NCBI GenBank assembly: GCA_903857865.1
Contig: CAIOGO010000008.1
Coordinates: 12,292-76,291, forward strand
Reading direction: 5' to 3'
DNA: 64,000 nucleotides
From: an uncultured bacterium
Lineage (GTDB): Bacteria > Bipolaricaulota > Bipolaricaulia > UBA7950 > UBA9294
Below are positions 46,323-60,742 of the stretch, in pieces. The translations under genes and the position numbers were made by a program. The notes beneath the pieces were generated by a model that was given only the letters and a program-made list of their open reading frames with translations, was not told the origin of the DNA and did no database searches. Each line of letters begins with the position of its first letter. Within the stretch, counting starts at the first letter, position 1.

Positions 46323-46395
<73 letters not shown>

Positions 46396-46634
46396 CAACG
46401 CTATTCTGGACGCCGTTCTTGAGCCCTGTTCATGGGGCCTGGAGTCACTTTCCGACGAGCCGCAATGGAGTCAGATGTGGCTGCAGGCTCGGCCGTGGAA
46501 CTCCATCAGCTGCTCTGCACCTTCTCCGCCAGCTGTATCAAGGCTAGACTAACAGTGAGATGGTTCACTTCCGGACGTGAGGGCACATCCGAGACACTTG
46601 GTGCATTAGGTGACTGAGAAGGCCATTGCGACAA

Positions 46635-49600
46635 ATGACGGGCGGCGATGCAAGGGTTGACAGCGTAAGAGCGTTTCGTGCCGGCCACGAGTATCACGAG
46701 GCTTGGACGGTGAGTCTAGCACTGCAGCTCTTGCAGCTCTTGCGGCCGGACGATGACCTTGTCGCGATTGCTGTCGAAGGGCTCTCTCCGGTCGATCAGG
46801 CTCGCGCCTCGGCGCGAGCCATGGAAATAGCGGACCTCACGCTCTACTACGGCGATGGACCGAGCTTCGAGGAGGCTTCGCGCGTCCGCGTTGTTCAGTT
46901 CAAGTACTCCGTAGCCGACAGTGACACGGACTTCCGGGCAAGCCACGCGAAGAAGACTATCGAGAAGTTCGCAGTGACATACCGCGAGGGTCTTGAGAAG
47001 TACGGCGCTTCGGCTGTAGAAGAGAAGCTTGGCTTCCAGCTCATGACGAACCGGCCAATCTACGCACCGCTTCTCCGGGCGGTGGAAGCTATAGCCCAAG
47101 GACTCCCTCGAACAGGAGAGATCGCGGAGCAGGCGAGGCAGTTCAAGGCTCATGCGCAGATGCACGGAGCGGCACTTGCCGCATTCGCCGCGAAGTTCGA
47201 ACTGAGCGGCCGTTCCGGAAGTCTTCAAGGGAAGAAGACGGAGGTCTCAACCTTGCTGGCTGACTGGTCGGCAGCGAGCGGCCAGGACCTCGTCGTCAGG
47301 GCGCGGCTTGGCGACCTGCGGGAGCTGGTTCGGGACAAGGCAGGCGAGAAGGGAGCTCCCCAGAATTGCATCACTCGAACGGACATCCTGGCAGTGCTTG
47401 GGGTGCACGACTCTGATGATATGCTGCCATGCAAGTCGGCACTCTCAGACGTCGGGAGGGTCGTTGAGCGCCAGCAACTCACCGATGCAGTCACTCTGAT
47501 CTCTTCCCTTACGATTCCGCTCGTGATCCACGGATGCGGAGGTATTGGCAAGACCGTGTTCATGTCCAGTCTTGCTGCGAAGCTTGCGGAGCGTGACGAG
47601 GTTCTCTTCTTCGACTGCTTCGGTGGTGGAGCCTATCGCGCCATAGACGAAGCAAGGCATCTGCCGCAGAGCGGTCTCATCCACATCGCGAACACGTTGT
47701 CGTTCCGCGGGTTATGTGAACCAATGCTACCTGGTAGTTCGGATGCGCGTTCGCTCATGCGAACGTTCAAGCGGCGTCTCATCCAGACTATCGCAACGAT
47801 ATCCAGAACGGAACCGGGAAGAGAAGTGATCCTGTTCATCGACGCTGTTGACAACGCTGCAATCGTCGCACAGGAGCGCGGTGACGATTGCTTCCCAGTT
47901 CAGTTGCTCGAGAGCCTCAATGACAAGCCCATCCCAGGTCTGAAAGTCATCGTCTCGTGCAGGACAGAGAACAAGCCCTCGACGTACGCGAGATACCAGG
48001 AATTCGAGTTGCAGCCGTTCACCAGGCTTGAAACGAAAGCATTCTTGCGTGCTCGGCTCAGGACGGTCTCCGAGACGGAGATCAACGTCGCGCAATCGCG
48101 GTCCGGCGGCAATCCGCGTGTACTTGCCCATCTGGCCGCGGGCGAGCGCGGTCTGCTTGATCAGTCTGAGATCGAGAAGAAGGTCGAACTCGACGAGCTC
48201 ATCCAGCAACGGATTGACAACGCGGTCGACACAGCCATCAAACGTGGGTGTACGCAAGGCGACATCAATCGATTCTTGGCAGGACTGGCTGTTCTGCCCC
48301 CGCCCATTCCGCTTGACGAGTGTGCTAGCGCGCTTGGCACTGACGAGAGCGCGGTCAAGAGCTTCGTCTCAGATCTCTTCCCATGGCTGGAGCGATTCGA
48401 CCAAGGCATCATGTTCAAAGACGAGCCCACCGAGACGCTGATTCGCCAGGAGTACGCGTCTTCTCAAGAGCTTCTTCGCCGTGTCGCCGACAACCTGTTC
48501 GCACGCCAAGACGAATCGGTGTATGCAGCTCGTGCTCTTCCAGAACTTCTGTACCGGCTCGATGATGGCAAGAGGCTCTTCAATCTGGCATTCGATGGTC
48601 GGATTCCTGCGGCGATAACAAGCGCGGTAGGCAGGAGGAGCATCCGGTATGCTAGGCTCAGGGCCGCGACACTCCACGCTGCGGAGAAGCGCAATGCTGA
48701 CGGGCTCGTGAAGCTGCTTGTGGAGCTGTCCACGGTCGCCGTCTCTGATCAGCGCGGGGCCACCTACATCCTCGAGCATCCCGATCTCGTCGTGGCCGCT
48801 AGGGACGCTGACGCGATGCGTCGGCTCTTTGAGACGCGCACCGGGTGGCCAGGGGCGCGTCATGCGAGGCTTACGATTGCCAATGCAGTTACCGGCGAAT
48901 TCGAGGAGGCATCGCGCAACGCGTCCGCGGCCAGAGAATGGATCAACCACTACCGCAGTCAACCTGATCACGCAAGACAGAGGAACGATCACGGTCCGGA
49001 ACGCCCGGACATTGCTGCTATACCACTCCTCCTGATCTCGGAGAGCCGTGCGAAGAACGCAGCGAACTTCCTCCGCGGATGGCAGGACTGGTATGCATAC
49101 GAAGTCTGCGAATGCGTATTCGAGTACTCCCGTCTGGCGCAAACGATCGGGACACAGTCGCCCCGCCGATTGTCTCGCTTTGTCGGTGAACTTGAGGGAA
49201 TCGGACCGCTTGCGGCGGCCCTTTCTTTCTCGGAGATCGGAAGGCCAAGACGCAAGGACTTGGTTGAGAAGTTGGCGGGGCTCTGCCGCAAGAGAACGCA
49301 GCTCCGGATCTCGGACAGCTTCGCACACAACGCGAGATACACCCTTCAGGACGGCCTTCGCAAGGCCGCCGCGATGGCCTTGGCGCTGGGGCTTGACGCA
49401 CAGGCGTTGGCAATCGCAACGCGTGCTCCTCATCAACGCCCGCGAGTCTCATCGTACCGCGATGTCTTCTATCATTCGGATGTCTTCCCCTTCCTGTTCC
49501 ACACGGCGCTCGTTGCCGCTGTGAAGGAGCAGCCTCTTCATGAGAAGGACGTCTTGCCTGCGGAGCTTGTGCCAGTCTGCTCTGCAATCCGCAAGAGCCA

Positions 49601-52600
49601 GGCAGGAAGCCAGTTCCGCGCCAAAGCGAAAGCGAGACTGCTCAAGAGCCCACAGAAGCAGCGCGCTGTGGAAGGGCAGGAGCCGCGCGCGCTGAGCTAC
49701 GAGGAACGCCAACAGGCCGAGCATTACCTCGACCACCGCTTGGGACCGCTCCTGGCGATGGCGCGGGCACTGTCGGCCATCCTTGCAGCGTCTTCTGGCG
49801 TAGTCGACAGAGCCTTCTTGGATCTGCTAGGGGTGTGGAAGGATGCTCGAAAGAGCCACGATTCATATCGAAGTGAGAAAGCCAGTCGCTTCTTCGAGAT
49901 GCTTGGCCTCGATGCGGCGCTCTTCGCGTTGTGGGCGCGTGGCGAGATCAGACCGGCATCTGTCGAATGCCTCCTCTCGACGATGCAGGACCAGGACGTT
50001 GGAGTCCAGTATCTCATCCGGCTCGTTTCGATTCTCGCAAGAAGACCTCACTTGCATGGTCTTGCTGGAGAGCTCGCGCTCAAGGCGCGCCAACATGTCG
50101 ACACCGAGCAGGACGTGGATTCCCGCGCATCGCTCTTCGCCAGTCTGGGTCGGGCCATGCTTCCCGCCAGCATTGATGAGGCAGCCACCTACTTCCGCAT
50201 GGGCCTTGAGCAGATGGATGCTATCGGTGCAGGGGACTATCGCTTCGTGCACGAGGTTCTCTCGTTCGCATCTGCGATCAAGGGCGGCGAGCTTGAGGAT
50301 CGTGACGTTCTCACCCTGGAAAGCATCTGTGAGCTCAACATGGGTGAGGAGGCGGAGAAGTTCACCTGGGGAGTGTACGGGCAGGCCATGTCCAAGTGCT
50401 CCGGTCTCAGAGGCCTGGCGACTCTGAGCAGGTGGGACGATCGCTCTCGGATCGCACTTCGCAGTACGCTGCTGCCCTATCTCACTGCACTGGTCGAAGA
50501 TGGAAAGCTTGCACCCGAGGATGCGCTCTCGCTCAATCATCTCGCTGCTCCCGCTGAGTACTGGGATAGCGGAACACGTGAGTTCGCGCGGGCCATCCGG
50601 GGCAAGGCCGGACCTGATCCGGAGGTTGTCTCTGAGCTCATCCAGCAATACGAGAAGAACAACCCAACAGCTCCGTGGGACGAGACCCTCCAGGCTCTTG
50701 CAGCCTTGGCGGAGGAAGCTTTCGGAGCATCTTCTGACACCGTCGGCCACCTCACCGCCGCTAGCGAGCGCTATGGCAGCACTCGTCATACGCTGAACGA
50801 ATACGGAAACTACAGCGGCGAGTCCGCATACAGAGAGCAGATGAGGGAGCGCGCGGACAATGAGCGGCAACAGGATCGCGCCAACGCAGAGAAGATTGGA
50901 GACGACGCCGATCCGACCGACAAGGCCTCGCTCTCTCGCGCAATCAGTGCTCTCAACGGACTGCAGTATGCCTACGACTTCAGGGCCGACTTCTTCTCCT
51001 CGATTCGCACCAGAGTCCCATTTGCCGAACACGCCAGGTACATCCACAACCTCTGCGATCTGGAGCACCTGTCGCTCCACTGGAAGCTGGCGGAGCTAGC
51101 AGAGTGCAAGCAGGGGTGGGGAAGATCCTCTGCTGCTCTCGGTCCGGCCCTACGGAGTGAAGCCATTCCCCTGATCGGGCTCCACGCTGATGACCTTCTG
51201 GGCGAAACTCTCGCCGGTTCGCAGATTGCGGAGATCTCCAACCTGACTGGGACACCAAGTTATGAGCTTGTCCTCGAGCTCATCCGAGTCGCTGCAAGGC
51301 GAAGGAGATCCGTCGCTGGTGCGGTCTGGCTTGCACTCGGCTCGTTTGTCTGTCCCCGTGCGAACGACGGCCAAGCTCGAGTCGCTCTGAGGCGCTTGCT
51401 CGGGAGTGATGCTGCGAAGCTTGCCGAGCGCGGCGCCAGCGAACGTTGCTCGGGTGGGCCTTACCCCACAGGCGACGTGCCGACGGTCGCGGCGGGACTT
51501 GTATGGAGAGCACTTGGGTCACCCTGCGCAGAGACGAGGTGGCACGCTGCCCACAGTGTCCGATGCTTCGCAAGGTTCGGACGATGGGAGGTTGTGGATT
51601 CGCTCGTCCGCCATCTCAACTGTAAAGATGCTGGGCCATTTCAGGCACCCGAACTCGCGTTCTACTATCTGCACGCCAGGCTTTGGCTCCTCATCTCGCT
51701 CGCTCGGACGGCGCTCGATCATCCCGAGGCGATCGCACGCTACAAGGATGACCTCACTTCACTCGTCATGGAAGAGCAATGGCCGCATGTTCTCATGCGC
51801 CACTTCGCCGCACGCGCGCTTCAGTCCTGCATCAATGCTGGAGAACTCACGTTGCCAGAGCCCGAGGAGAGGCAAGTGCGTACGATCGATCTGACGCCGC
51901 ATCCTCATCTGAAGGAGAGTGGGACGGAGCGCACAGATTCGTACCACAGTCGTCCGGATTCGATTCCGAGACCGGCTTTCGAGCTCCATTTCGACTACGA
52001 GTTCCACAAGCTTGATGTAGACAGCCTGGGCCGGGTTTTCGGCAAGTCATGCTGGGAAGTCGCCGATACGATCTCGTCGATCGTTCATCGGCTTGACCCG
52101 GCGGTGTCCAGCATGTACGACGCCGGTGGTCGTGACTCACCGCAGCGATACGGCTACTACGGCTTCGGCACGGAACATCACGGGTACGGCCAACAGCTTG
52201 GTTGGCACGCGCTCTTCATCGCTGCAGGCGAGTTCCTTAGGGCGCTTCCCGTCGTGGATAGTCCGTGGTACAACGAGGACGCCTGGGAGGAGTGGCTCGG
52301 CCGGTATCTTCTCACTCGAGAGGATGGACTCTGGCTTTCGGATGGCACGGACACCCAGCCATTGGATACAGCCAGCACTCTCCTTGAGAAAGGGACGAAG
52401 AGCCTCAAGATCACTGGGGCCCGAAAGAGACTCCTGCAACTAGCCGGAATCGGCGACGCTGTTGGAAAGGAATTGGTCGTCGAGGGGAGGTGGTTCTCTG
52501 CAGACGATATCGGCATCCACATCTCATCAGCGTTGGTTCCCCCAAGCAAGGCCAGGGTGCTTGCGCGAGCGCTGACTCGTGAAGAGCCCGTGATTGTCTG

Positions 52601-53102
52601 GATTCCCGTACTTGATGAATCCGAAAGCGACCTGGGCTACCGACAACAAGAGTACGCACCCTGGATCGTCTGCCCGTCCGGCGTCGCTCGGCTTGACGAA
52701 CACGATCCCTACGGAGCCACCGTTGCGAATCTCAGGCCGCGCCTGGCACGCGAGATCTTGAGCTTGTACTCGCTCAGGAGCCGTGATCCATTCGAGCGAG
52801 TCTGGTCTGACAAGCGAGACGCCGCAATGTTGCGTGCTGACGCATGGGGCCGCGACGAGACGGACGCTCGGCGAAGTCCACATCCAGGGCTACGCCTGAT
52901 CTGTGCCTCTCCTTTGCTCAGGAGGCTACTGACCAAGAGAGATCGGGACTTGCTTCTGCTCATCAAGCTCGAACGCCACGAGAAGAGGCATGGACAAGAC
53001 AGCGAATGGAGCCACACGATCGCCGTAGTTCGCATTGCTAAGACGCTTGACCTTGAGTACTTCGAGGGGCGCACGAACCATGCATACAGACCTGGGCGCT
53101 AG
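46635..53102 (+). CDS. giant STAND NTPase with N-terminal Cap4/DUF4297-like PD-(D/E)xK nuclease domain and about 1600-aa unassigned C-terminal region (Avs/bNACHT-like defence candidate)
   Basis: N-terminus GGDARVDSVRAFRAGHEYHEAW...IAVEGLSPVD...EIADLTLYY...VVQFKYS. Walker A GCGGIGKT (47532-47555), Walker B VILFIDAVD (47826-47852), GGNPRVLAHL. ATG 46635 (TTG 46626 also possible). Confidence 0.8.
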   Translation: MTGGDARVDSVRAFRAGHEYHEAWTVSLALQLLQLLRPDDDLVAIAVEGLSPVDQARASARAMEIADLTLYYGDGPSFEEASRVRVVQFKYSVADSDTDFRASHAKKTIEKFAVTYREGLEKYGASAVEEKLGFQLMTNRPIYAPLLRAVEAIAQGLPRTGEIAEQARQFKAHAQMHGAALAAFAAKFELSGRSGSLQGKKTEVSTLLADWSAASGQDLVVRARLGDLRELVRDKAGEKGAPQNCITRTDILAVLGVHDSDDMLPCKSALSDVGRVVERQQLTDAVTLISSLTIPLVIHGCGGIGKTVFMSSLAAKLAERDEVLFFDCFGGGAYRAIDEARHLPQSGLIHIANTLSFRGLCEPMLPGSSDARSLMRTFKRRLIQTIATISRTEPGREVILFIDAVDNAAIVAQERGDDCFPVQLLESLNDKPIPGLKVIVSCRTENKPSTYARYQEFELQPFTRLETKAFLRARLRTVSETEINVAQSRSGGNPRVLAHLAAGERGLLDQSEIEKKVELDELIQQRIDNAVDTAIKRGCTQGDINRFLAGLAVLPPPIPLDECASALGTDESAVKSFVSDLFPWLERFDQGIMFKDEPTETLIRQEYASSQELLRRVADNLFARQDESVYAARALPELLYRLDDGKRLFNLAFDGRIPAAITSAVGRRSIRYARLRAATLHAAEKRNADGLVKLLVELSTVAVSDQRGATYILEHPDLVVAARDADAMRRLFETRTGWPGARHARLTIANAVTGEFEEASRNASAAREWINHYRSQPDHARQRNDHGPERPDIAAIPLLLISESRAKNAANFLRGWQDWYAYEVCECVFEYSRLAQTIGTQSPRRLSRFVGELEGIGPLAAALSFSEIGRPRRKDLVEKLAGLCRKRTQLRISDSFAHNARYTLQDGLRKAAAMALALGLDAQALAIATRAPHQRPRVSSYRDVFYHSDVFPFLFHTALVAAVKEQPLHEKDVLPAELVPVCSAIRKSQAGSQFRAKAKARLLKSPQKQRAVEGQEPRALSYEERQQAEHYLDHRLGPLLAMARALSAILAASSGVVDRAFLDLLGVWKDARKSHDSYRSEKASRFFEMLGLDAALFALWARGEIRPASVECLLSTMQDQDVGVQYLIRLVSILARRPHLHGLAGELALKARQHVDTEQDVDSRASLFASLGRAMLPASIDEAATYFRMGLEQMDAIGAGDYRFVHEVLSFASAIKGGELEDRDVLTLESICELNMGEEAEKFTWGVYGQAMSKCSGLRGLATLSRWDDRSRIALRSTLLPYLTALVEDGKLAPEDALSLNHLAAPAEYWDSGTREFARAIRGKAGPDPEVVSELIQQYEKNNPTAPWDETLQALAALAEEAFGASSDTVGHLTAASERYGSTRHTLNEYGNYSGESAYREQMRERADNERQQDRANAEKIGDDADPTDKASLSRAISALNGLQYAYDFRADFFSSIRTRVPFAEHARYIHNLCDLEHLSLHWKLAELAECKQGWGRSSAALGPALRSEAIPLIGLHADDLLGETLAGSQIAEISNLTGTPSYELVLELIRVAARRRRSVAGAVWLALGSFVCPRANDGQARVALRRLLGSDAAKLAERGASERCSGGPYPTGDVPTVAAGLVWRALGSPCAETRWHAAHSVRCFARFGRWEVVDSLVRHLNCKDAGPFQAPELAFYYLHARLWLLISLARTALDHPEAIARYKDDLTSLVMEEQWPHVLMRHFAARALQSCINAGELTLPEPEERQVRTIDLTPHPHLKESGTERTDSYHSRPDSIPRPAFELHFDYEFHKLDVDSLGRVFGKSCWEVADTISSIVHRLDPAVSSMYDAGGRDSPQRYGYYGFGTEHHGYGQQLGWHALFIAAGEFLRALPVVDSPWYNEDAWEEWLGRYLLTREDGLWLSDGTDTQPLDTASTLLEKGTKSLKITGARKRLLQLAGIGDAVGKELVVEGRWFSADDIGIHISSALVPPSKARVLARALTREEPVIVWIPVLDESESDLGYRQQEYAPWIVCPSGVARLDEHDPYGATVANLRPRLAREILSLYSLRSRDPFERVWSDKRDAAMLRADAWGRDETDARRSPHPGLRLICASPLLRRLLTKRDRDLLLLIKLERHEKRHGQDSEWSHTIAVVRIAKTLDLEYFEGRTNHAYRPGR

Positions 53103-53314
53103 GCGCGCGCACCGGGCACGGACTGCGGCGAACACCTATGCTTCTTTGTGCTTGCAGTGTGAGGCGCGCCGCTCTGACACGTCAGGCGACGGCTCCCGCT
53201 CGTGGACCAACGCTGCGGTGCGAGCTGAAGCACAGAAGACGTAGACATCGACGCTGTGTTCTCACGATGCCGTGACTGGGAGGCACCCGTCACCACTCTG
53301 CGACGGTCACACGC

Positions 53315-53343
53315 GTTCTCTGATCGGTCCCCCAGGCTCCACA
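53315..53343 (+). repeat. 29-mer tRNA-3'-end-like repeat, copy A
   Basis: GTTCTCTGATCGGTCCCCCAGGCTCCACA, identical at 55793-55821 and 63733-63761. The ending GGCTCCACA matches the tRNA-Ala 3' end. Confidence 0.9.
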
Positions 53344-53444
53344 GGGACCACGGCTTCGCTGTTCTGGTCAGCGCTCTTCACCGCTGTCACCTACTTCCCC
53401 GCAGAGGGGCATCGGCGACAACGTAGACAGAATCCTCACTTCTT

Positions 53445-53461
53445 GGTTCGAGTCCCCTAGG
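53445..53461 (+). repeat. attR-like exact copy of the tRNA-Ala T-arm/acceptor segment
   Basis: GGTTCGAGTCCCCTAGG equals 46374-46390. Confidence 0.9.
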
Positions 53462-53661
53462 GTCGCGTGATGTGCATCACACTCGCTCCCGTAGCTGGAA
53501 TCCCTCCTTCTTCGTTTAACGATGGGCTCGGGGGCAGATCAAGCTGGGCGTAGTCCGGGTCCGTGCCGACGCAGCCTGTCATCTGCTGCAACCTGGGCGC
53601 AACCCCCAAGCGATCCCGATTTCGGATCCACCCTGGAGGTCTCACGGGAGCACGTCGGCGC

Positions 53662-55593
53662 CTACTGCTGCGACAGTGACGCTCTCAACTCCGAAAGGCG
53701 ACCGGTCAGTTCTCGGGCCTTCACAGTGCCGGGCTCATCACCGATGAATCGAGACAGCGCTTGCGCCTGCGCCGCCAAGTCCGAGAGCTTATCCAGCTCA
53801 AGACCTCTTCCCGAGCCAGCCTCGATCCTCCAGCGGATCACGTCACGGACGGAGTTTGACCAGGCGGTGATGTACCCAAGGCGCCGGTAGAGGTCCACCT
53901 GGTCTTCCGAGAGCTGCGCTTTCGTCAGCGCCGGTCTGCTCTCTAGCCGTATGTGCAAGCGCTTGGCATGCTGGCTTCCGAAGTAGTTGTCAGAGAAGTC
54001 GAAGTGCCTCTTGGCTCTCCACAGATGGAAGGCCGCCCAGCACCTAGCAATCCTCCAGACCTGCGTCCACCTTCCCCCGCGCTTGAGCGCCTCATGGAGG
54101 CTCTCTACTGCCTGGGCAGCAAGCAAGTGGAGGTTTCCCGCTGCGCTCGACAGCCGCTTCCTGCGCGGGACGGACTCGGGGCCAAATCCACAAGACCAGC
54201 ATACGACCGAGGCTCCAAGCAGGCGAACCCAGATCCCAAGCCACCGACCGCCAATAGCCGCCATCTGAGTCCACCAGGGGGATCCCCTGTCGGCGGCGCT
54301 ACCGCGCTGGGCCGCGGGTGAACGGACGCGTAGCAGTGACGCCCGTGTCTCGGCGAGACCGAGGCGCGCGCTGCTCAACTCGATCCGCTCTACTGCATCT
54401 TCGGAAGCTCTCAGCGCGGCGGTGTAGCCCTGCTCGGAGAGAGCGAGCGATTGGGCGGTGTGGGATTCGAGGAAGTGAGCTCGCGCCTTCGCTTTCTGAT
54501 ACCAGACCTGGTTTCGCAAGGATGGTCTGTCGTCTGCCATCCCCGCAAGCAGCGCGAGGGCGGCTGAGCCCGCCCCCACGTCAAGCGCTGCCAGACACGC
54601 CCACCTCGCCGCTTCGCCTGGCGGGAATGCACTCGTATCGACTGGCAGACTCCCGCATGGGCGCGCAGAGCTTTGGGAACCCCTTGGTTCCGGCTCCATG
54701 CTGACGGAGGCACGCTGTTCAAGAGAGAGCGTGGCAGACAGTCTCTGGAAGAACGGTACGGCATCTCCACACATGGCCACTGTCGATGGGAAGCCAAGGA
54801 TGCGTCTAGCATCTAGCGAGACGTCTGCATTCTGCCCGTGCAGATTCCAGTAGAAGCGAGACGCGCCCGCCTTAAGCAGCAACGGGCAGATGTCGAAGTC
54901 GAAGCCGCTGTACCCAAAGACGACGACGGTCTTGCCGTGGATGAGCTCTTTCAAGAGATCCCGCTTCCAGGGAGGAAGCGCGCGCTCTGCCGAGAGCGAG
55001 GAGACAACTGTGCGGGGTTCATCGATACTGCCATGGATCTTGAAGAGAGGAGGCAGTGCCGGGGACCATGAGTCGAGCTGTCTCTCCTCGAAGATGCGGG
55101 TGTTCTCCCGCGCAGCTGGCGTCCAGCACTGCTCGATGAGGGTATCATAGTTCGTCGTCACAATGGCCGAGGCAGCAGGCGGAGAAGCCGCAAGGCAACC
55201 TGCAAGCGTCGAGTGTATCTTGTTGCTCGTTCCAGACGCGAGGTTTCGCACCAGGAACTGCTGGACCGGGCCCTCGCCTATCTGGGCATCATAGATGTCC
55301 AGCAAGCCCTCAAGGGGGACACCGTGGACTTGGAGTCGTTCCTGCAAGCCAGGAACGGGAAGCTCGCAGCCTCCGAGCGCGGCAGCAAGGGTCGCTGCAA
55401 GGTCAACGGGAAGTGTCCGGAACGTGTCCGATCCGATGAGCATAGCAGCCAAGCTTCGCCGGAGCTCCTCACCAGTCGGGAGACAGGCCGGCGGAGGCTT
55501 GGAAACACCCGCGCCGATGAAGAACACGAGATCTTGCGGAGGCACCGCAGCGATTTCGTCGACGAGATCAGTGTTACTGGGGTAGTCTGCCAC
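53662..55593 (-). CDS. SIR2_2-domain protein with unassigned alpha-helical C-terminal half (defence-associated sirtuin candidate)
   Basis: LVFFIGAGVS, VTTNYDTLIEQ, LFKIHGSIDEP, VVVFGYSGFDFDI. GTG 55593 lies 5 nt after GGAGG. Confidence 0.8.
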   Translation of the reverse strand: MADYPSNTDLVDEIAAVPPQDLVFFIGAGVSKPPPACLPTGEELRRSLAAMLIGSDTFRTLPVDLAATLAAALGGCELPVPGLQERLQVHGVPLEGLLDIYDAQIGEGPVQQFLVRNLASGTSNKIHSTLAGCLAASPPAASAIVTTNYDTLIEQCWTPAARENTRIFEERQLDSWSPALPPLFKIHGSIDEPRTVVSSLSAERALPPWKRDLLKELIHGKTVVVFGYSGFDFDICPLLLKAGASRFYWNLHGQNADVSLDARRILGFPSTVAMCGDAVPFFQRLSATLSLEQRASVSMEPEPRGSQSSARPCGSLPVDTSAFPPGEAARWACLAALDVGAGSAALALLAGMADDRPSLRNQVWYQKAKARAHFLESHTAQSLALSEQGYTAALRASEDAVERIELSSARLGLAETRASLLRVRSPAAQRGSAADRGSPWWTQMAAIGGRWLGIWVRLLGASVVCWSCGFGPESVPRRKRLSSAAGNLHLLAAQAVESLHEALKRGGRWTQVWRIARCWAAFHLWRAKRHFDFSDNYFGSQHAKRLHIRLESRPALTKAQLSEDQVDLYRRLGYITAWSNSVRDVIRWRIEAGSGRGLELDKLSDLAAQAQALSRFIGDEPGTVKARELTGRLSELRASLSQQ

Positions 55594-55792
55594 ACTCACC
55601 TCCGCCGGGAGACTCCAAGAGGATATCAACCTGATCCCCCAAGACTGAACCGCGGCATCAGGTGAACCTCTCACCTTGACGTACCTACAGCGTGGAGGAG
55701 CCAAGGTGGCCGCATTGTAGATCGGAACGGCGAATGCGGGTCTTGGCTGGCATGATGTGGACCCGGATTACCAGCGAGCGACGGCCACTCGA

Positions 55793-55821
55793 GTTCTCTG
55801 ATCGGTCCCCCAGGCTCCACA
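55793..55821 (+). repeat. 29-mer tRNA-3'-end-like repeat, copy B
   Basis: Identical to 53315-53343. Followed at 55847-55876 by a second repeat type (GTTCTGGTTACAGTCATGCAGGCTCCACAG). Confidence 0.9.
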
Positions 55822-56102
55822 CTACCACTCTGTAGTCAGAACGAAGGTTCTGGTTACAGTCATGCAGGCTCCACAGCCCGTGTATTCTCGTTCCCTTCTG
55901 CCGTTTCCGCCTTCGCGCTAAGGCTGTCAGCCCGTTGTTGGTGGGAACGCTGTGTAGCCGCCAAGGAGATGCGAGCAGTTGCGCTGCCCAGGATCCAGGG
56001 GTTCGCCACGATGCTCGCAGACAAGCAGAATCTCACGGCCCCTCCGCCAACTGGTGATACAACTCTCGGCTCACCCGACTGGCGGCCGTGCAGATTGCCA
56101 GC

Positions 56103-58040
56103 CTAATCTGAGAGGCCAACCCTCCTGAGAAGGTTGGTATACCGAGGATCCGAGCGGACGGAGGCAAGATGGGAGTCCATCTTCATCGACGAGAGCTGGG
56201 GATCGCGTTCAGCGTACGCGCGCTCGAGAAGCTCGAATCCCTCTTCATTCCGACCCAGCGCGAAGTGAAAAAGAGCGACCAAATAGGGCGAGAGCGGTTC
56301 CGTCTTTGCGTGTTCAAGAACCGTGTTCAGCGACGCCTCAATGGCGCCGCTATCCCCCTTGGCTTCCCGGACGGCAGCGAGGCAGAGCTCAAGTTCCGGA
56401 TCGAAAGACCCTGCGAGCTCCCGCGCTCTCTCAAGGTCGGCCTGAGCCAGATCCAGCCGCCCTTGCTGTAGGTAGATCTCCCCACGCCACGCGCGCAGAA
56501 CGCGATTGTCCTCTCCGAGCGCGAGCTGCATGTCGTATTCAGCAAGCGCCAGGTCTAGCTGCCCGGCGCTCTGGTAGGCATTCCCGAGGGCACCGTGCTG
56601 CACGGCGGACAGAGGGTCGAGCGTCTGAGCCGTCATGAGCGCGGCGATTGCCTCATCAGATCGTCCGCACGTGGAAAGATACAGTCCAAGCCAGTGATGG
56701 GCCAGCGCGTAGCTGGGCGAGAGTTCAATCGCCCTGCGCAACTCCCTCTCCACTCCTTCTAGGTCGAACTCCCAAGAGAGGATGCCCGCAAGCGCAACGT
56801 GGGCCTCCGCCAGATTGGGGTCAAGGGTCAGTGCTTCAAGTGCACTCGCCTTCGCCTTGGGAACCACGTCAGCGAGCGCCATGGGTTCGTAGTTGGGCAG
56901 GACCGCGTATGCGATGGATAGCGCCGCGTGGGCTGCAGCGTGCCCGGGGTCGAGCTCGATCGCTCGCTCAAAGCACTCGATAGCGTTGCGGATATTGCCG
57001 GTGGACCTGCGACTCATGAAGCCGCGGCCCTTCAAGTAGGACGCGTAGGCTTCCGGATTCGCTTTCGCCGGCTCGCCGGCCGGCCGCATGGCCCTCGGCA
57101 CGAGCTGGACTTCTAGAGCTGTGGCAACGCTGCGAGCAACCTCACTCTGGACCACGAACACGTCATCCAACGTGCGATCGTACGTCTCCGCCCACAGATG
57201 GGCCTCGCGTGCGACATCGATGAGTTGGAGAGTGATCCGCAGGCGATTCCCCGCTTTGCGGACACTCCCCTCGAGAACCACACCGACGCCCAGCTCGCTG
57301 CCGACCTCCGACACTGCTTTCTTTGCACCGCGGTACTTCATCACCGACGTAAGGGCGATCACCTCGAGTCCGCTTACTCTCGATAGGGTGAAGATCAACT
57401 CCTCGGTCAGCCCGTCGGCGAAGTACTCATCTCCTGGTTCTGGGCTCATGCTCATCAGTGGCAGGACGGCGATGCGGGACGACTCCCCTGCTGGGTGCGC
57501 CGGAGCCTCGTTCCGCATCCAGGGGAGGAGCATCTTGTAGACCTCGATCGAGACCTTCACGTTCTTGAGATCCTTCTTGCCGAGGCTCGCCATGGGGAGG
57601 TCCGTCTTGTTCCAGACTTGGTCGTAGACCTGACGGGAGAGACAGATTCCTCCAGGTTCAGCCAGCGGCTCGATGCGCGAAGTGATGTTCACCCCGTCAC
57701 CGAAGATGTCGCCGCCCCGGTGAACGACATCTCCGAGGTGAATGCCGATACGCAAATGGATGGCGCGGTCAAGAGGGACCGCGCCGTTGCGCTCGTGGAG
57801 GGCCCGCTGGATCTCAACAGCGCAGCGGACAGCCTGAAGGGCGCTGGGGAATTCGACGAGAAACCCGTCTCCTGTGCCTTTCACCTCGCGGCCTTCGTGC
57901 TCGGCGAACAAGGGGCGAAGGAGTCGCGCGTGTTCTTCGAGGAGTGCCAGAGTCAGGGCTTCGTCGGTCTGGGTAAGCGCTGTATACCCGACAACGTCCG
58001 TCAGCATGATAGCTGCAAGCTGTCGAGTGTCCTTGTCCAT
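56103..58040 (-). CDS. class III adenylate/guanylate cyclase fused to a TolB-N-like module and TPR repeats
   Basis: IMLTDVVGYTAL, KGTGDGFLVEF, RIGIHLGDV, GDGVNITSRIE, then TPR-like repeats. ATG 58040 preceded by AAGGAGAG. Confidence 0.88.
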   Translation of the reverse strand: MDKDTRQLAAIMLTDVVGYTALTQTDEALTLALLEEHARLLRPLFAEHEGREVKGTGDGFLVEFPSALQAVRCAVEIQRALHERNGAVPLDRAIHLRIGIHLGDVVHRGGDIFGDGVNITSRIEPLAEPGGICLSRQVYDQVWNKTDLPMASLGKKDLKNVKVSIEVYKMLLPWMRNEAPAHPAGESSRIAVLPLMSMSPEPGDEYFADGLTEELIFTLSRVSGLEVIALTSVMKYRGAKKAVSEVGSELGVGVVLEGSVRKAGNRLRITLQLIDVAREAHLWAETYDRTLDDVFVVQSEVARSVATALEVQLVPRAMRPAGEPAKANPEAYASYLKGRGFMSRRSTGNIRNAIECFERAIELDPGHAAAHAALSIAYAVLPNYEPMALADVVPKAKASALEALTLDPNLAEAHVALAGILSWEFDLEGVERELRRAIELSPSYALAHHWLGLYLSTCGRSDEAIAALMTAQTLDPLSAVQHGALGNAYQSAGQLDLALAEYDMQLALGEDNRVLRAWRGEIYLQQGRLDLAQADLERARELAGSFDPELELCLAAVREAKGDSGAIEASLNTVLEHAKTEPLSPYLVALFHFALGRNEEGFELLERAYAERDPQLSSMKMDSHLASVRSDPRYTNLLRRVGLSD

Positions 58041-58234
58041 GACCTCGCTCTCTCCTTCTTGTCCGGCAGTATGGGATCTCGGGCGTGCCGCGGCAAGTAG
58101 AGACCAGCTCCAGCTCACGCTCCCGCAAAGGAACTGTTGGGGTTGGCAGGAACGAGGTGGGCGCGGACAGCCTATAGTCCCCCAATGAGGAGGCATGACC
58201 TGGCTGGCGCTGCCACCTTGCGATCAGGACGAGA

Positions 58235-58264
58235 GTTCTGCTTGCAGTCATGCAGGTTCCACAG
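58235..58264 (+). repeat. 30-mer repeat related to 55847-55876
   Basis: GTTCTGCTTGCAGTCATGCAGGTTCCACAG, 27/30 identical to the copy at 55847-55876. Confidence 0.8.
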
Positions 58265-58371
58265 AGATTGCTCGTCCTGGTCTGAGTTTCGTCCCTTCGT
58301 CGCAGCCACCCACCGCTCATGTCGGGTGAGTCTTGCGAGTGACCTGCCCTGTACGCTAGCGACCGGTTCGG

Positions 58372-59487
58372 TCACGGGCAGAGGGCGAAGAGCACGTCTC
58401 GCGCGAGCACCATCTGGAAGAGACGCCTCGGCTCATCACCGATGGGTCGGACGGTGAGGGTCAGGTCCGACCCCTCGACGTTCGCTGCGGTCATCGTGAA
58501 GGCGACCTGCGAGTAGGGCTGCCCTCCCTGGGCGCTCGCGCCGAACTCGGCCAGACCTCGCCGGAGAGGAAGATCGGAGTCCGCGGAGGCCGGGTCGAGA
58601 AAGCGCAAGACGAAGGTCCCGACGGGCACATCACCGTCGTAGCGGTACGCCACTCCAAACGCGGTGAAGAAGTGAAGGCCGGCCCGCTCGGCCAGAAGCG
58701 CGTTCAATGCAGCGTACAAACCCTGTGGGTCGCTCGCATGGATGAATGACTGGAGTACAGAGTCGGGGGACAGGATCGAGCAGGCTCCCGGGCCGATCAC
58801 CAGGATCGCCGACGCCACGCCCTGCAGTCGGCCGGTCAGCCCCTGAGCCGCTGCATCCTCGCTCAGAGTCGGGATCTCTCCTCGATAGGCGCTCAACGCC
58901 TCGTCCAGAGCCGCCGCAGACGATGACAGGATGAGCAGCCCGTCCTCGGCCACAACGGCCGTATTGAGGATGGCCAGTTCACTCTTGGCCAGCCATGCTG
59001 CCCCGAAGTCAAGCGGGTGCGAGTAGACCGCCACGCCGTGCGACTCCGTTTGCGTGAACCCGCGCTGCTCGAACAGGGACACGAGTAGGCCAAACTGGAA
59101 CCCAGCAGCGAACTTCAGCACGTAGACAGACATCGCCGTGCCATTTGTGAAGTTGGCCTCCCACTGGAGGTCGCTGCTCCGCCATCCCCAAAGCGCGGCT
59201 TGGTCCGGGTGGTTCGCTCCGAAGGCAGAGGCGGCGGCCTGGCCTCGGCCGAGACTCGTGGTGAGTGCCCTCTCCGCGTCCTCGGGGCTCTGCTGGAAGG
59301 CCGCATCGAACCCAACGTAGCCCTTGAGCACAGTCCAGTCCGTGAAGTAGACGGTCGCTGAGACTGACCCTGCCGGGACGAGCGACAGCACGTCGAGGAG
59401 CGGTGAGGAGTTGGCCACGTCCTCGCCCAGTACGCCGACCGCGCCCGCCGCCACAACGAGGAGCAGGAAGAAGATTGATGCCTTCAT
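58372..59487 (-). CDS. hypothetical secreted protein
   Basis: ATG 59487 preceded by GGAGGTG. Signal peptide MKASIFFLLLVVAAGAVGVLG. No family recognised. Confidence 0.6.
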   Translation of the reverse strand: MKASIFFLLLVVAAGAVGVLGEDVANSSPLLDVLSLVPAGSVSATVYFTDWTVLKGYVGFDAAFQQSPEDAERALTTSLGRGQAAASAFGANHPDQAALWGWRSSDLQWEANFTNGTAMSVYVLKFAAGFQFGLLVSLFEQRGFTQTESHGVAVYSHPLDFGAAWLAKSELAILNTAVVAEDGLLILSSSAAALDEALSAYRGEIPTLSEDAAAQGLTGRLQGVASAILVIGPGACSILSPDSVLQSFIHASDPQGLYAALNALLAERAGLHFFTAFGVAYRYDGDVPVGTFVLRFLDPASADSDLPLRRGLAEFGASAQGGQPYSQVAFTMTAANVEGSDLTLTVRPIGDEPRRLFQMVLARDVLFALCP

Positions 59488-59965
59488 CACACCTCCGTAC
59501 CACTGGCCGACAGCACGCACCATTGGCATCCTCCTCACCACCTGCGACGCTCTCCGGTCACGATCTCTCTCAGGTGCCGCTCTGCTGTGCAGGGCGAATG
59601 CGATCCCACGTTCCGCTGACCTGCCCGCCAGAGCGTCGGATCTCTCGATCCGAGCTGCCCCACCATAAGCACTGCTGGCCAGTCACTGCAAGTGCTGCGC
59701 GTAGCCCGCGTCTGGGCCAGCCGGACACCCTGCTGCATGGCTGAACCCTCTACGCCCGGCAGGTGCGTGACGTCTTGTCGCTGTTGGCGGAAGCTGCTAA
59801 CTTCTCCTGCGACGCGGACCGCACGCGGGGCAGGTCAAGATGGCCTCGATCGTCCAGCTGAGAAGGCCATGAGTTGGTCCGACGGAGAGCGGCTGACGTC
59901 CTCACCAGCGCCGGTGGACAATGGCTCTTGGTGAACTGAGCGAGAGAGGTCATGGAGGACAGCAC

Positions 59966-60742
59966 ATGAAGAAGGTCACTGCGTTCGTTGGAAGCGCCCG
60001 CAAGAAGCACACGCACGACGCCGTCTGCCGGTTCCTGGACCACCTGCAGGCGCGGGGTGACGTCGAGTGCGAGATCGTCGCTCTGAGCGACTACCGGCTC
60101 GAGGTCTGTCGCGGCTGCAAGCTGTGCTTCGAGAAGGGGGAGGAGGCGTGCCCTCTCAAGGACGACCGGGACACGCTCATCGCGAAGATGGTCGCGTCCG
60201 ACGGCGTCGTCTTCGCATCCCCGAACTACCTGTTTCAGGTCTCCGCCATCATGAAGACCTTCCTCGACCGGCTCGCCTTTTTTGCCCATCGCCCGCGCTT
60301 CTTCGGAAAGACCTTCACCAACATCGTCGCCCAAGGGTTCCCCTTCGACAGCAAGATTGGGAAGTATCTGAACTTCGCGGGCGCCTGCCTCGGGTACAAG
60401 ACCGTTGGCGGAAGCCACATCACGGCCCTTGAGCCGATGACGGAGAAGGAGGCGCGAAAGGTCGACAGGGTCCTTGAGAGGCACAGTAGGCGGTTCCACC
60501 AAAGTCTGATGCGGTCGAACCTCCCTGCGCCGTCGTTCGTCATGCTCATTGGTTTCCGGATCGGCCGCACGACGCTGAGGCTCGAGCTGGACGATCGAAA
60601 CTTCGACTACAGGTACTACCGAGACAAGGGTTGGTTCGACTCCGACTACTACTATCCCGTTCGCTTGGGTCCGCTGAAGAAGGCGGCAGGCAGCCTCTTC
60701 GATGCGCTCGGCAGGAGGATGGCGAGAAAGAGAACGGGATGA
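59966..60742 (+). CDS. NAD(P)H-dependent FMN reductase / iron-sulfur flavoprotein-like oxidoreductase
   Basis: MKKVTAFVGSARK flavodoxin-like start, CRGCKLC...C cysteine cluster, VFASPNY. RBS GGAGGA. Confidence 0.75.
   Translation: MKKVTAFVGSARKKHTHDAVCRFLDHLQARGDVECEIVALSDYRLEVCRGCKLCFEKGEEACPLKDDRDTLIAKMVASDGVVFASPNYLFQVSAIMKTFLDRLAFFAHRPRFFGKTFTNIVAQGFPFDSKIGKYLNFAGACLGYKTVGGSHITALEPMTEKEARKVDRVLERHSRRFHQSLMRSNLPAPSFVMLIGFRIGRTTLRLELDDRNFDYRYYRDKGWFDSDYYYPVRLGPLKKAAGSLFDALGRRMARKRTG

What the first reader, a model, noticed from the sequence alone, without database searches (positions are those of the whole stretch)
53662..55593. Stand-alone SIR2_2 protein with an unassigned helical C-terminal half
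The N-terminal about 300 aa contain all SIR2_2 landmarks (FFIGAGVS, TTNYD with the catalytic Asn, KIHGS with the catalytic His, FGYSGFDFD). These are shared by the NAD+-depleting defence effectors ThsA, DSR1/2, SIR2-HerA and SIR2-pAgo partners. The C-terminal about 340 aa are Arg/Ala/Leu/Trp-rich helices with no motif I recognise, and the protein is much shorter than DSR1/DSR2 as I recall them. No TIR, HerA, pAgo or STAND partner lies in the same module. The gene is convergent with the STAND gene but separated from it by the att repeat. It is a candidate single-gene NADase defence with a novel sensor.
Basis: partly seen in the sequence, partly recalled or inferred. Interest (0 to 1): 0.7.

Follow-up and report, generated by a model that had tools for sequence, protein, structure and literature searches.

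The report
Rare stand-alone SIR2 defence-like protein
This gene encodes a very rare one-protein candidate immune system: an NAD-destroying SIR2 enzyme fused to a helical domain found nowhere else, sitting in a mobile cassette beside a known antiviral gene. It is a new version of a familiar design, not a new kind of system.

Summary
Window 55593..53662 (-) is an intact 643-aa ORF with a GTG start and a GGAGG Shine-Dalgarno. Its N-terminal ~290 aa are a SIR2_2 domain (Pfam 50.8 bits, cut-off 24.5). S31, N148, D150 and H187 are invariant and align with the catalytic residues of ThsA, KomC, SIR2-APAZ and DSR2. The C-terminal 324 aa are all-helical and an orphan. An exhaustive HMM search of 1.84 billion representative proteins found the domain only in about seven ~590-640-aa proteins, always fused to SIR2_2. 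There is no PDB sequence hit and no significant Foldseek hit; the weak top hits are TPR or designed repeat proteins. No PADLOC model types the protein, and no partner gene is shared across seven contexts. The gene is the only long ORF in a 2.4-kb module bounded by att-like repeats that copy the 3' end of the tRNA-Ala gene, next to an Avs3 gene. Two relatives also sit next to tRNA genes. The nearest SIR2 relatives are similar-sized proteins with other tails (TPR_12, FGE-sulfatase). Best reading: a short, DSR-like, single-polypeptide abortive-infection NADase whose helical tail senses or regulates. NADase activity and defence are inferred, not shown. Novelty: new variant of a known kind. Interest is moderate.

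The parts
53662..55593 (-). Complete gene: 643-aa SIR2_2 + orphan helical CTD protein (stop codon 53662-53664)
   Evidence: ORF and translation. An identical protein P0001 is on ENA contig L077.
55599..55603 (-). Shine-Dalgarno GGAGG, 5 nt upstream of the GTG start
   Evidence: Sequence read directly. Homologue N-termini align to this start.
54724..55593 (-). SIR2_2 (NADase-type sirtuin) domain, aa 1-290, including a helical insertion at about aa 40-135
   Evidence: Pfam PF13289 at 50.8 bits. The profile hit to SIR2-APAZ 8jkz spans aa 23-269. Mean identity among distant family pairs is 36%.
55501..55503 (-). Ser31 of the Rossmann G-A-G-V-S motif (equivalent of DSR2 S51)
   Evidence: Invariant in A4. 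DSR2 residue list from PMC11850899.
55144..55152 (-). Asn148-Tyr-Asp150 of TTNYD: catalytic Asn and Asp (DSR2 N133/D135 equivalents)
   Evidence: Invariant. Aligned to TTNYD/TTNFD of ThsA, KomC and SIR2-APAZ.
55033..55035 (-). Catalytic His187 of K-I-H-G-S (KomC H146 and DSR2 H171 equivalent)
   Evidence: Invariant. Aligned to the HG of ThsA, KomC and SIR2-APAZ.
54892..54915 (-). GYSGFDFD motif (aa 227-234), family-typical end of the SIR2 core
   Evidence: Invariant G227, Y228, S229, G230, D232, F233, D234.
54637..54723 (-). Unconserved linker, aa 291-319
   Evidence: 16% identity among distant pairs. Low pLDDT.
53665..54636 (-). Orphan all-helical C-terminal domain (CTD), aa 320-643
   Evidence: AF2 model has 16 helices, pLDDT 70.3, pTM 0.62. 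Real hits in 1.84e9 representative proteins are all fused to SIR2_2 where the N-terminus is present. 0 PDB sequence hits at E<=10. No Foldseek hit at E<=1e-3.
54004..54399 (-). Variable, indel-rich middle of the CTD (aa 399-530). It contains a conserved hydrophobic helix (about aa 439-467) and a strongly basic stretch (aa 476-530)
   Evidence: 23-26% identity among distant pairs; net charge +4 to +10 for aa 476-530 in all members. Kyte-Doolittle 19-residue maxima of 1.5-2.0 fall in the aligned segment in 4 of the 6 members; in the window protein the maximum (1.84) is at aa 332-350.
53704..54003 (-). Conserved C-terminal module of the CTD (aa 531-630) with invariant F531, DNY, R549, YRRLGY, S579, RD, P621, K625-A626
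   Evidence: 37% identity among distant pairs, as high as the SIR2 domain. Invariant columns. The 120-aa fragment P0008 covers exactly this module.
53283..53344 (+). att-like direct repeat bounding the SIR2 module on the Avs3 side; it ends in a 16/17 copy of the tRNA-Ala 3' end
53445..53464 (+). 20-nt fragment of the tRNA-Ala T-arm/acceptor (19/20 identical)
55761..55822 (+). att-like direct repeat bounding the SIR2 module on the promoter side. A shorter variant follows at 55822-55876, and a third short repeat family has a copy at 55865-55898
46323..46396 (+). tRNA-Ala(GGC) gene, the anchor of the island array in which the SIR2 module lies
   Evidence: ARAGORN and Rfam. L001 has a 95% identical tRNA next to its SIR2 gene.

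Best explanation
The gene encodes a self-contained, single-polypeptide anti-mobile-element (abortive-infection type) effector of the defence-associated sirtuin kind. The N-terminal SIR2_2 domain is an NAD+ glycohydrolase using S31, N148, D150 and H187, and it is kept inactive in uninfected cells. The C-terminal ~324-aa alpha-helical solenoid, joined by a flexible linker, is its dedicated regulatory or sensor domain. I propose that the two conserved ends of the tail (aa 320-398 and aa 531-630) dock on or transmit to the SIR2 domain and/or mediate oligomerisation. The variable, basic, indel-rich middle (aa 399-530) would contact an infection-derived ligand, either a phage protein or a nucleic acid. 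Ligand binding would release the SIR2 site, NAD+ would be depleted, and the infected cell would stop supporting phage growth. The gene travels as a one-gene cassette in tRNA-linked islands. Shown here: the domain identity and intact catalytic residues, the obligate SIR2-CTD fusion, the absence of a conserved partner, and the island/att context. Inferred: NADase chemistry, the defence role, the tail as sensor, the assignment of roles to tail sub-regions, and the nature of the trigger.
For: SIR2_2 scores above the Pfam cut-off. The catalytic Ser, Asn, Asp and His are invariant across 28-58%-identical members. They align with solved NADase-type SIR2 proteins (ThsA, KomC, SIR2-APAZ, DSR2), whose catalytic set is S51/N133/D135/H171 in DSR2 (PMC11850899). 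Canonical sirtuin Pfam PF02146 is not hit at E<=1, and there is no conserved CxxC pair. The CTD occurs only fused to SIR2_2 in an exhaustive search. No flanking ORF is shared among seven distinct contexts. The window context is a tRNA-Ala island array with lowered GC. Next door is an Avs3 gene (PADLOC E 2.4e-201). The SIR2 gene is the only long ORF between two att-like repeats, and the tRNA 3' 17-mer occurs 4 times against 0.01 expected. L001 has the gene beside the same tRNA-Ala, together with a helicase that partly matches Mokosh MkoA/MkoC and a second SIR2_2 protein. L083 has it beside a tRNA-Gly. L002 has it beside a DUF4365 REase-fold protein. L081 has it near a small terminase. Distribution is extremely patchy: 1 full-length relative in 185,579 species genomes, in an archaeal MAG. 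The CTD fold is a helical hairpin array whose weak best matches are TPR proteins. Sister SIR2 proteins carry TPR_12 or FGE-sulfatase tails of similar size, which is the modular effector-plus-sensor pattern. DSR2 shows that an alpha-solenoid tail can gate a SIR2 NADase through phage-protein binding.
Against: There is no experimental evidence for NADase activity or phage protection in this family. The last 100 residues of the tail are as conserved as the catalytic domain, and the tail is never found with another effector. Both points fit a structural or regulatory scaffold, or a conserved-ligand pocket, better than a fast-evolving phage-protein sensor. Only seven distinct contexts exist, and most are short. 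One of them (L129) is flanked by redox and ABC-transporter genes with nothing defence-like. No integrase is visible in the window. The CTD model has moderate confidence and the full-length model is poor, so nothing is known about the SIR2-CTD interface or oligomeric state. The TPR likeness is not significant at sequence or fold level.
Confidence: 0.6

Rival explanations
1. The SIR2 domain is still an immune effector, but the tail is not a direct phage-protein sensor. It would be an autoinhibition or oligomerisation scaffold, or a pocket for a conserved small molecule or nucleic acid (for example a nucleotide signal, phage DNA/RNA, or a metabolic cue of host takeover).
For: The C-terminal module (aa 531-630) is as conserved as the catalytic domain and carries invariant polar and aromatic motifs: DNY, YRRLGY, RD, P..KA. 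Residues 476-530 are strongly basic in all members. The tail is never recombined with other effectors.
Against: No known ligand-binding domain (SLOG, CNB, SAVED, Macro and the like) is detected by Pfam, PADLOC or PDB searches. No signal-producing partner is conserved next to the gene. Conserved motifs could equally be helix-packing or SIR2-docking residues.
Confidence: 0.2
2. The protein is a protein-modifying sirtuin (deacylase or mono-ADP-ribosyltransferase). It would act on a specific host or invader protein that the helical tail recruits, and would not act as a bulk NAD+ depleter.
For: SIR2-superfamily chemistry allows it (introduction of PMC11850899). A helical-repeat tail could be a substrate-binding platform.
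Against: Pfam's canonical SIR2 family is not hit, and there is no zinc-ribbon Cys4. All significant solved relatives are NADase-type defence SIR2 proteins or FAM118B. Distribution is extremely patchy and island-borne, not housekeeping.
Confidence: 0.12
3. The gene forms a two-gene system with the upstream same-strand adenylate/guanylate cyclase-TPR gene (56103-58196). The cyclase would make a nucleotide signal that the SIR2 tail senses, in a Pycsar/CBASS-like logic.
For: The two genes are adjacent, on the same strand, and in the same island.
Against: They are separated by 509 nt containing att-like repeat copies, which mark a module boundary. The cyclase gene has its own repeat 14 nt upstream of its start. 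None of the six other family contexts has a cyclase. The cyclase has no PADLOC hit, and the SIR2 protein has no cyclic-nucleotide-binding domain.
Confidence: 0.05
4. The gene is a decaying or functionless passenger in an old island scar.
For: No integrase is visible in the island array. The family is extremely rare.
Against: The 643-codon ORF is intact and has a good Shine-Dalgarno. Catalytic and tail motifs are invariant across lineages that share only 28-36% identity, which indicates purifying selection on both halves.
Confidence: 0.03

Closest known systems
DSR2 (defence-associated sirtuin 2, Bacillus subtilis)
   Same: A single polypeptide with an N-terminal SIR2 NADase domain and the same Ser/Asn/Asp/His set. 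It has a helical alpha-solenoid C-terminal region that gates the enzyme and needs no partner gene.
   Different: DSR2 is ~1005 aa with MID and HEAT-like CTD domains; this protein is 643 aa. Sequence similarity is confined to about 95 residues of the SIR2 core (31 bits). No DSR2 chain appears among the 50 Foldseek rows shown for the tail. The trigger (tail tube protein in DSR2) is unknown here.
DSR1
   Same: A single-gene SIR2-N-terminal defence protein with a large uncharacterised C-terminal region.
   Different: The PADLOC Dsr1 profile (1227 positions) matches only aa 143-235, at 11.4 bits. DSR1 is about twice the size.
Thoeris ThsA
   Same: Its SIR2 domain is the closest solved relative (7uxt, E 2.4e-12), with TTNYD and HG aligned.
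   Different: ThsA has a SLOG/STALD signal-binding domain and works with a TIR protein, ThsB. Neither is present here.
SIR2-APAZ of short-pAgo SPARSA systems
   Same: Its SIR2 domain gives the longest alignment (aa 23-269, including the helical insertion), and related PADLOC models give the best scores for most other family members.
   Different: No APAZ region is matched, and no pAgo gene lies nearby in the window or in any homologue locus.
Uncharacterised SIR2_2-TPR_12 and SIR2_2-helical proteins of ~560-690 aa (L007 Acidobacteriota, L014 Promethearchaeia MAG, P0004, L006 Bradyrhizobium stylosanthis, L029 Pyrinomonadaceae)
   Same: They are the nearest SIR2 sequence relatives (23-34% identity over the SIR2 domain among these examples). 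They share the overall size and layout, with a helical-repeat tail.
   Different: Their tails are not detectably homologous to this CTD (hhalign probabilities 0.1-4%). I found no paper using the terms 'SIR2-TPR', 'TPR-SIR2' or 'SIR2 TPR'.
PADLOC candidate single-gene systems PDC-S25 / PDC-S65
   Same: They are SIR2-containing single-gene defence candidates with profiles of about 500-590 positions, and PDC-S25 is the top PADLOC hit of the window protein.
   Different: The match is 22.8 bits over about 55 residues of the SIR2 core only, so this is not a member.

Membership tests
Pfam SIR2_2 (PF13289), NADase-type SIR2 domain | HMM score above the gathering cut-off | tested here: met
   50.8 bits against a cut-off of 24.5, E 2.4e-13. 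All other family members scanned also pass.
Pfam SIR2_2 (PF13289), NADase-type SIR2 domain | Rossmann GxGxS plus catalytic Asn/Asp (TTNYD) and His (HG), aligned with solved NADase SIR2 proteins | tested here: met
   S31, N148, D150 and H187 are invariant. The profile alignment to ThsA, KomC and SIR2-APAZ places them on the catalytic motifs. The DSR2 residue set is from PMC11850899.
Pfam SIR2_2 (PF13289), NADase-type SIR2 domain | NAD+ glycohydrolase activity | not testable with these tools
   Needs an enzyme assay.
DSR2 | ~1000-aa protein with SIR2 + MID + HEAT-like CTD homologous to B. subtilis DSR2 | tested here: not met
   643 aa. Similarity to DSR2 chains is limited to aa 143-237. No DSR2 chain is among the 50 Foldseek rows shown for the tail.
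DSR2 | Activation by phage tail tube protein | not testable with these tools
   Needs co-expression or binding experiments.
DSR1 | Full-length match to the Dsr1 profile | tested here: not met
   11.4 bits, aa 143-235 only, against a 1227-position profile.
Thoeris (ThsA/ThsB) | SLOG/STALD domain C-terminal to SIR2, and an adjacent TIR gene | tested here: not met
   PADLOC ThsA hits cover only profile positions 105-160 (SIR2 part). No TIR appears in the neighbour scans.
SIR2-HerA | Adjacent HerA ATPase gene | tested here: not met
   No HerA appears in the Pfam or PADLOC scans of window neighbours or homologue loci.
SPARSA (SIR2-APAZ + short pAgo) | APAZ region and an adjacent pAgo gene | tested here: not met
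   The Aga_SIR2 models match only the SIR2 part. No pAgo neighbour is present.
Avs5 / SIR2-STAND | STAND NTPase domain in the same polypeptide | tested here: not met
   No P-loop, NACHT or AAA hit in the protein at E<=1. The Avs3 STAND gene is a separate, convergent gene in the adjacent att-bounded module.
Canonical sirtuin deacylases (Pfam SIR2, PF02146) | PF02146 match and a Cys4 zinc ribbon | tested here: not met
   PF02146 is not listed at E<=1. The only CxxC is at aa 465 and is not conserved.
TPR repeat superfamily (for the CTD) | Significant match to TPR sequence models | tested here: not met
   No TPR Pfam family at E<=1. hhalign against TPR_12 tails of sister proteins gives E 0.036 and 0.52.
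TPR repeat superfamily (for the CTD) | TPR-like alpha-solenoid fold | tested here: inconclusive
   The best Foldseek hits are TPR proteins, but at E 6e-3 or worse and TM 0.2-0.38, with a model of pLDDT 70. A TPR_12-rich protein (P0010) hits CTD profile positions 231-281 in 14 stretches. Helices in the second half are 18-35 residues long, longer than canonical TPR helices by my own knowledge.
PADLOC PDC-S25 / PDC-S65 | Full-length profile match | tested here: not met
   22.8 and 18.2 bits. The PDC-S25 match covers ~55 residues of the SIR2 core; the PDC-S65 match covers aa 141-294.

The most novel reading that the evidence does not exclude
The family could be a previously unrecognised class of miniature defence sirtuin, in which an orphan helical domain co-evolved exclusively with SIR2. 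Its invariant C-terminal module (DNY / YRRLGY / RD / P..KA), basic helix and hydrophobic helix would recognise a conserved non-protein cue, such as nucleic acid, a nucleotide-derived signal, or a membrane perturbation, and not a variable phage protein. That would be a new sensing principle for SIR2 effectors. The family would be mobile as a ~2.4-kb one-gene cassette at tRNA genes and shared between bacteria and archaea.
Probability: 0.2. Interest if true: 0.6.

Novelty: new variant of a known kind. Interest (0 to 1): 0.4.

Why it matters
If the protein is active, it would be one of the smallest self-contained SIR2 immune proteins. At 643 aa it is about two-thirds the size of DSR2 and half that of DSR1. 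Its regulatory domain has no relatives outside the family, so it would add a new sensor module to the SIR2 NADase toolkit. It would also be a compact model for studying how a helical tail gates a SIR2 active site. The surrounding array of single-gene modules, each bounded by copies of the tRNA-Ala 3' end (Avs3, this SIR2 gene, a cyclase-TPR gene, and unassigned ORFs), suggests a way to nominate further unknown defence genes. The finding is not a new principle: SIR2 effectors fused to diverse sensors are well known, and many such candidates remain untested.

Tried and rejected
1. Full-length AF2 with only three sequences gave pLDDT 48.7 and was not used for fold search.
2. Word-indexed profile searches with the full-length alignment and the CTD alignment added only one member, P0013.
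3. The metagenome pattern scan with the CTD alignment found nothing. The full-length scan found only SIR2-core relatives. The viral-contig scan gave only SIR2-core partial hits.
4. A PDB profile search with the CTD returned 0 hits at E<=10. Foldseek against PDB and BFVD returned nothing at E<=1e-3.
5. hhalign of the CTD against the tails of the nearest SIR2 relatives (L029, L006, L007, L014) was not significant. A broader homologous 'SIR2-TPR' family therefore could not be established.
6. I looked for a conserved small flanking ORF and rejected it by all-against-all BLASTP of six-frame peptides within +/-800 nt.
7. I considered the cyclase-TPR gene as a partner and rejected it, because of the module boundary and its absence from the other loci.
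8. I considered the ~60-nt repeats as promoters or integron attC sites. I rejected this because their spacing to gene starts is inconsistent (14, 168, 300 nt) and they end in a tRNA-Ala 3' copy. Rfam found only the tRNA.
9. The simple sigma-70 promoter and intrinsic terminator scans found nothing, which is uninformative at this GC content.
10. I considered a transmembrane reading of the helix at about aa 439-467 (KD 1.5-2.0). I judged it unlikely because there are Arg/Lys residues inside it and basic residues on both sides, but no dedicated predictor was available.
11. The organism could not be identified. The gene is absent from the GTDB representative genomes apart from one archaeal MAG relative.
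12. The 389-aa and 616-aa island ORFs gave no informative family or PDB hits.
Full report
**Observation.** Window 55593..53662 (- strand) is an intact ORF of 643 codons. It starts at a GTG with GGAGG five bases upstream. A longer TTG-initiated reading exists, but the N-termini of the homologues align to the GTG start. Pfam SIR2_2 scores 50.8 bits against a cut-off of 24.5. NCBIfam gives nothing. PADLOC gives only weak matches (23 bits or less), all starting in the SIR2 core and none reaching past aa 294: PDC-S25, ThsA, pAgo-associated SIR2, PDC-S65, Dsr1.

**The SIR2 half.** I aligned six full-length family members sharing 28-58% identity. G27, G29, S31, N148, D150, H187 and the GYSG.DFD motif are invariant. 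A profile of that alignment searched against all PDB sequences finds only NADase-type SIR2 proteins and the human SIR2-like protein FAM118B:
- ThsA 7uxt, E 2.4e-12
- KomC, E 8.5e-10
- SIR2-APAZ 8jkz/8in8, E 4.8e-9, covering aa 23-269
- FAM118B, E 3.7e-7
- DSR2 8k98, E 6.5e-7

The printed alignments put the family's TTNYD and K.HG on the TTNYD/TTNFD and HG of those enzymes. DSR2's pocket residues are S51, N133, D135 and H171, and H171A or N133A/H171A abolish NAD+ depletion (PMC11850899). All four equivalents are invariant here. The canonical sirtuin Pfam family is not hit and there is no conserved Cys4 zinc ribbon.

**The C-terminal half.** Residues 320-643 follow an unconserved linker (aa 291-319, 16% identity among distant pairs). 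I ran an exhaustive hmmsearch of a CTD profile against 1.84 billion representative proteins.
- It returned nine hits. Five are real (P0003, P0005, P0006, P0008, P0012). The four full-length ones are 588-640-aa proteins with an N-terminal SIR2_2 domain, and P0008 is a 120-aa fragment of the tail.
- Three hits are tandem-repeat artefacts.
- One is a CHAT-STAND-TPR protein whose TPR_12 repeats hit CTD profile positions 231-281 fourteen times.

Further searches added only P0013/L129 (true ORF 595 aa) and L005 (631 aa, a Methanosarcinales MAG). L005 is the only full-length relative in one genome from each of 185,579 species. Metagenome and viral pattern scans found no more. The tail is therefore an orphan domain that exists only fused to SIR2_2.

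A CTD profile has no PDB sequence hit at E<=10. An AF2 model built on seven sequences (pLDDT 70.3, pTM 0.62) is a stack of 16 helices. Foldseek finds nothing at E<=1e-3 in the PDB or BFVD. The weak leaders (E 6e-3 or worse, TM 0.2-0.38) are TPR proteins such as LGN/Pins, Acl4, APC/C subunits, PEX5 and KLC2, or designed helical repeats. No DSR2 chain is among the 50 rows shown. 'TPR-like alpha-solenoid' is thus a reasonable but unproven label, since no Pfam TPR model matches.

Conservation along the tail is uneven. Identity among distant pairs:
- aa 320-398: 29%
- aa 399-475: 26%
- aa 476-530: 23%
- aa 531-630: 37%, as high as the SIR2 domain (36%)

The last segment carries the invariant residues F531, DNY, R549, YRRLGY, S579, RD, P621 and KA. 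The middle is indel-rich. It contains a hydrophobic helix at about aa 439-467: Kyte-Doolittle maxima of 1.5-2.0 fall in the aligned segment in four of the six members, although the window protein's own maximum is elsewhere. It also contains a stretch (aa 476-530) with net charge +4 to +10 in every member.

**Relatives of the SIR2 domain.** The nearest SIR2 sequences outside the family are mostly 560-690-aa proteins with 300-400-residue tails. Some tails are bona fide TPR_12 (L007 Acidobacteriota, L014 Promethearchaeia MAG, P0004). One is FGE-sulfatase (L039). The rest are unassigned helical regions (L006 Bradyrhizobium stylosanthis, L029 Pyrinomonadaceae, and Chloroflexota loci). None of the four tails tested (L006, L007, L014, L029) is detectably homologous to this CTD. 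This is the pattern of one effector clade carrying interchangeable tail modules. I found no paper using the terms 'SIR2-TPR', 'TPR-SIR2' or 'SIR2 TPR'.

**Context in the window.** Left of 46.3 kb the window is ordinary chromosome at 64-69% GC, with LeuRS, phosphoglucomutase, MetRS, Obg and RNase G. A tRNA-Ala(GGC) gene sits at 46323-46396, and GC drops to about 60-64% to its right.

The 2158-aa STAND gene at 46626-53102 is an Avs3 (PADLOC Avs3a, E 2.4e-201). Direct repeats of about 62 nt lie at 53283-53344, 55761-55822 and 63701-63762, with shorter variants at 55822-55876 and 58210-58264. The three ~62-nt repeats end in GTCCCCCAGGCTCCACA, a 16/17 copy of the last 17 nt of the tRNA-Ala gene; the shorter variants keep only the last ~10 nt. 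That 17-mer occurs four times, all on the + strand and all at or right of the tRNA, against 0.01 expected. Longer tRNA-Ala fragments lie at 53445-53464 and 61221-61281.

I read this as tandem accretion of att-bounded modules at the tRNA:
- Avs3
- the SIR2 gene, the only long ORF between repeats whose starts are 2478 nt apart
- a class III cyclase-TPR gene
- several unassigned ORFs

No integrase is visible in the window.

**Context of homologues.** The contexts are:
- L001 (P0002, 58% identity): the SIR2 gene lies directly beside a 95%-identical tRNA-Ala(GGC). It is followed by an RNase_H_2/SF1 helicase that partly matches Mokosh MkoA/MkoC (133 bits), DnaJ- and ParA-like genes, a copy of the same att-like repeat about 9.6 kb away, and a second, 908-aa SIR2_2 protein.
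- L002 (P0003): a divergent DUF4365 protein with a REase-fold match to a pAgo-associated effector.
- L078 (P0005): an SDH_protease gene.
- L081 (P0006): a small terminase gene nearby.
- L083 (P0012): a tRNA-Gly directly upstream, with 29-nt hairpin-type direct repeats 2442 nt apart (start to start) bracketing the gene.
- L129 (P0013): a singleton among redox and ABC-transporter genes.

All-against-all BLASTP of six-frame peptides within 800 nt of eight of these genes (all contexts known at that point, so excluding L129) found no shared small ORF between different members. The gene is therefore stand-alone, and homologues are not in housekeeping operons.

**Mechanism.** The best-supported reading (confidence about 0.6) is a short, DSR-like, single-polypeptide abortive-infection NADase. 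The SIR2 domain would hydrolyse NAD+ once the helical tail releases it. By analogy with DSR2, where an alpha-solenoid tail captures a phage protein and opens the SIR2 site, the tail would be the sensor or regulator.

From the conservation pattern I propose a division of roles. The conserved ends of the tail would dock on the SIR2 domain or mediate oligomerisation. The variable basic middle would contact the trigger.

What is shown: the domain identity, the intact catalytic residues, the obligate fusion, the absence of a partner, and the island and att context. What is inferred: NADase chemistry, a defence role, tail-mediated sensing, and the nature of the trigger.

The main internal tension is that the last 100 residues are as conserved as the enzyme and the tail is never shuffled to other effectors. 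That fits a scaffold or a conserved-ligand pocket better than an arms-race sensor, so I keep it as the leading rival (0.2). The other rivals are a protein-modifying sirtuin (0.12), a two-gene system with the upstream cyclase-TPR gene (0.05; 509 nt containing att-like repeats separate them, and no cyclase occurs at other loci) and a dead passenger gene (0.03).

**Verdict.** It is a new variant of a known kind: a familiar effector and layout with a novel, orphan regulatory domain, about half to two-thirds the size of DSR1/DSR2, untyped by PADLOC, and extremely rare. A specialist would find it plausible and mildly interesting but not surprising. Interest is 0.4.

Noticed in passing
window 46323-63762 (repeats at 53283-53344, 55761-55822, 55822-55876, 58210-58264, 63701-63762; tRNA fragments at 53445-53464 and 61221-61281): There is a tandem array of att-like direct repeats to the right of tRNA-Ala(GGC). 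The three ~62-nt copies end in a 16/17 copy of the tRNA 3' end (4 matches against 0.01 expected); the shorter variants keep only the last ~10 nt. The repeats split the region into one- to few-gene modules (Avs3, SIR2, cyclase-TPR, others). No integrase is visible. The same repeat bounds an island at the tRNA-Ala of the related locus L001 (10572-10663).
   Followed up: partly
window 46626-53102 (+): A 2158-aa NACHT/STAND protein is typed as Avs3a by PADLOC (E 2.4e-201). The best matched stretch covers only aa 13-821 of the protein (profile positions 6-811 of 2090), so the C-terminal sensor region may be divergent.
   Followed up: no
window 56103-58196 (-): A 697-aa class III adenylate/guanylate cyclase with TPR repeats lies in its own att-bounded module, with a repeat only 14 nt upstream of its start. 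It has no PADLOC hit. It may be another uncharacterised island cargo or defence candidate.
   Followed up: partly
window 58372-59541 (-), 59750-60502 (-), 61551-63401 (-): These island ORFs of 389, 250 and 616 aa have no Pfam, NCBIfam or PADLOC assignment. The 389-aa and 616-aa ORFs were also searched against the PDB, with only a marginal MgtE-like hit for the 616-aa ORF. The 250-aa ORF overlaps, on the opposite strand, an FMN_red ORF (59921-60742, +), so one of the two is probably not a real gene.
   Followed up: partly
window 60861-61568 (+): This 235-aa ORF contains the ~60-nt tRNA-Ala 3' fragment (61221-61281) and has no family hit. It is probably not a real gene.
   Followed up: no
L001 3141-6629 (-) and 12897-13077 (-): At the same tRNA-Ala hotspot in a related organism, the island carries a 1162-aa RNase_H_2 + SF1 helicase that partly matches Mokosh MkoA/MkoC (133 bits), and a second, 908-aa SIR2_2 protein.
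   Followed up: partly
L083 58-132, 169-197 and 2611-2639: The distant family member P0012 sits directly after a tRNA-Gly(CCC). It is bracketed by a 29-nt (97% identical) direct repeat with twin hairpins, 2442 nt apart start to start. That cassette size is close to the 2478-nt spacing in the window.
   Followed up: partly
L039 7665-9392; L007 3687-5675; L014 1953-3833: Sister SIR2_2 proteins carry other C-terminal modules: FGE-sulfatase (Oscillospiraceae MAG) and classic TPR_12 (an Acidobacteriota MAG and a Promethearchaeia/Asgard MAG). Stand-alone SIR2-TPR proteins appear to be undescribed in the searchable literature.
   Followed up: partly
window 54193-54276 (aa 440-467 of the protein): A long hydrophobic helix is conserved in position across the family (Kyte-Doolittle 19-residue mean up to 2.0 in P0005 and P0006). 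It contains Arg/Lys and has basic residues on both sides. Membrane association cannot be excluded with the tools at hand.
   Followed up: partly
L005 522-2417: The only full-length relative among 185,579 species genomes is in a Methanosarcinales archaeon MAG, on a 2.9-kb contig. This suggests cross-domain transfer, if the binning is correct.
   Followed up: no
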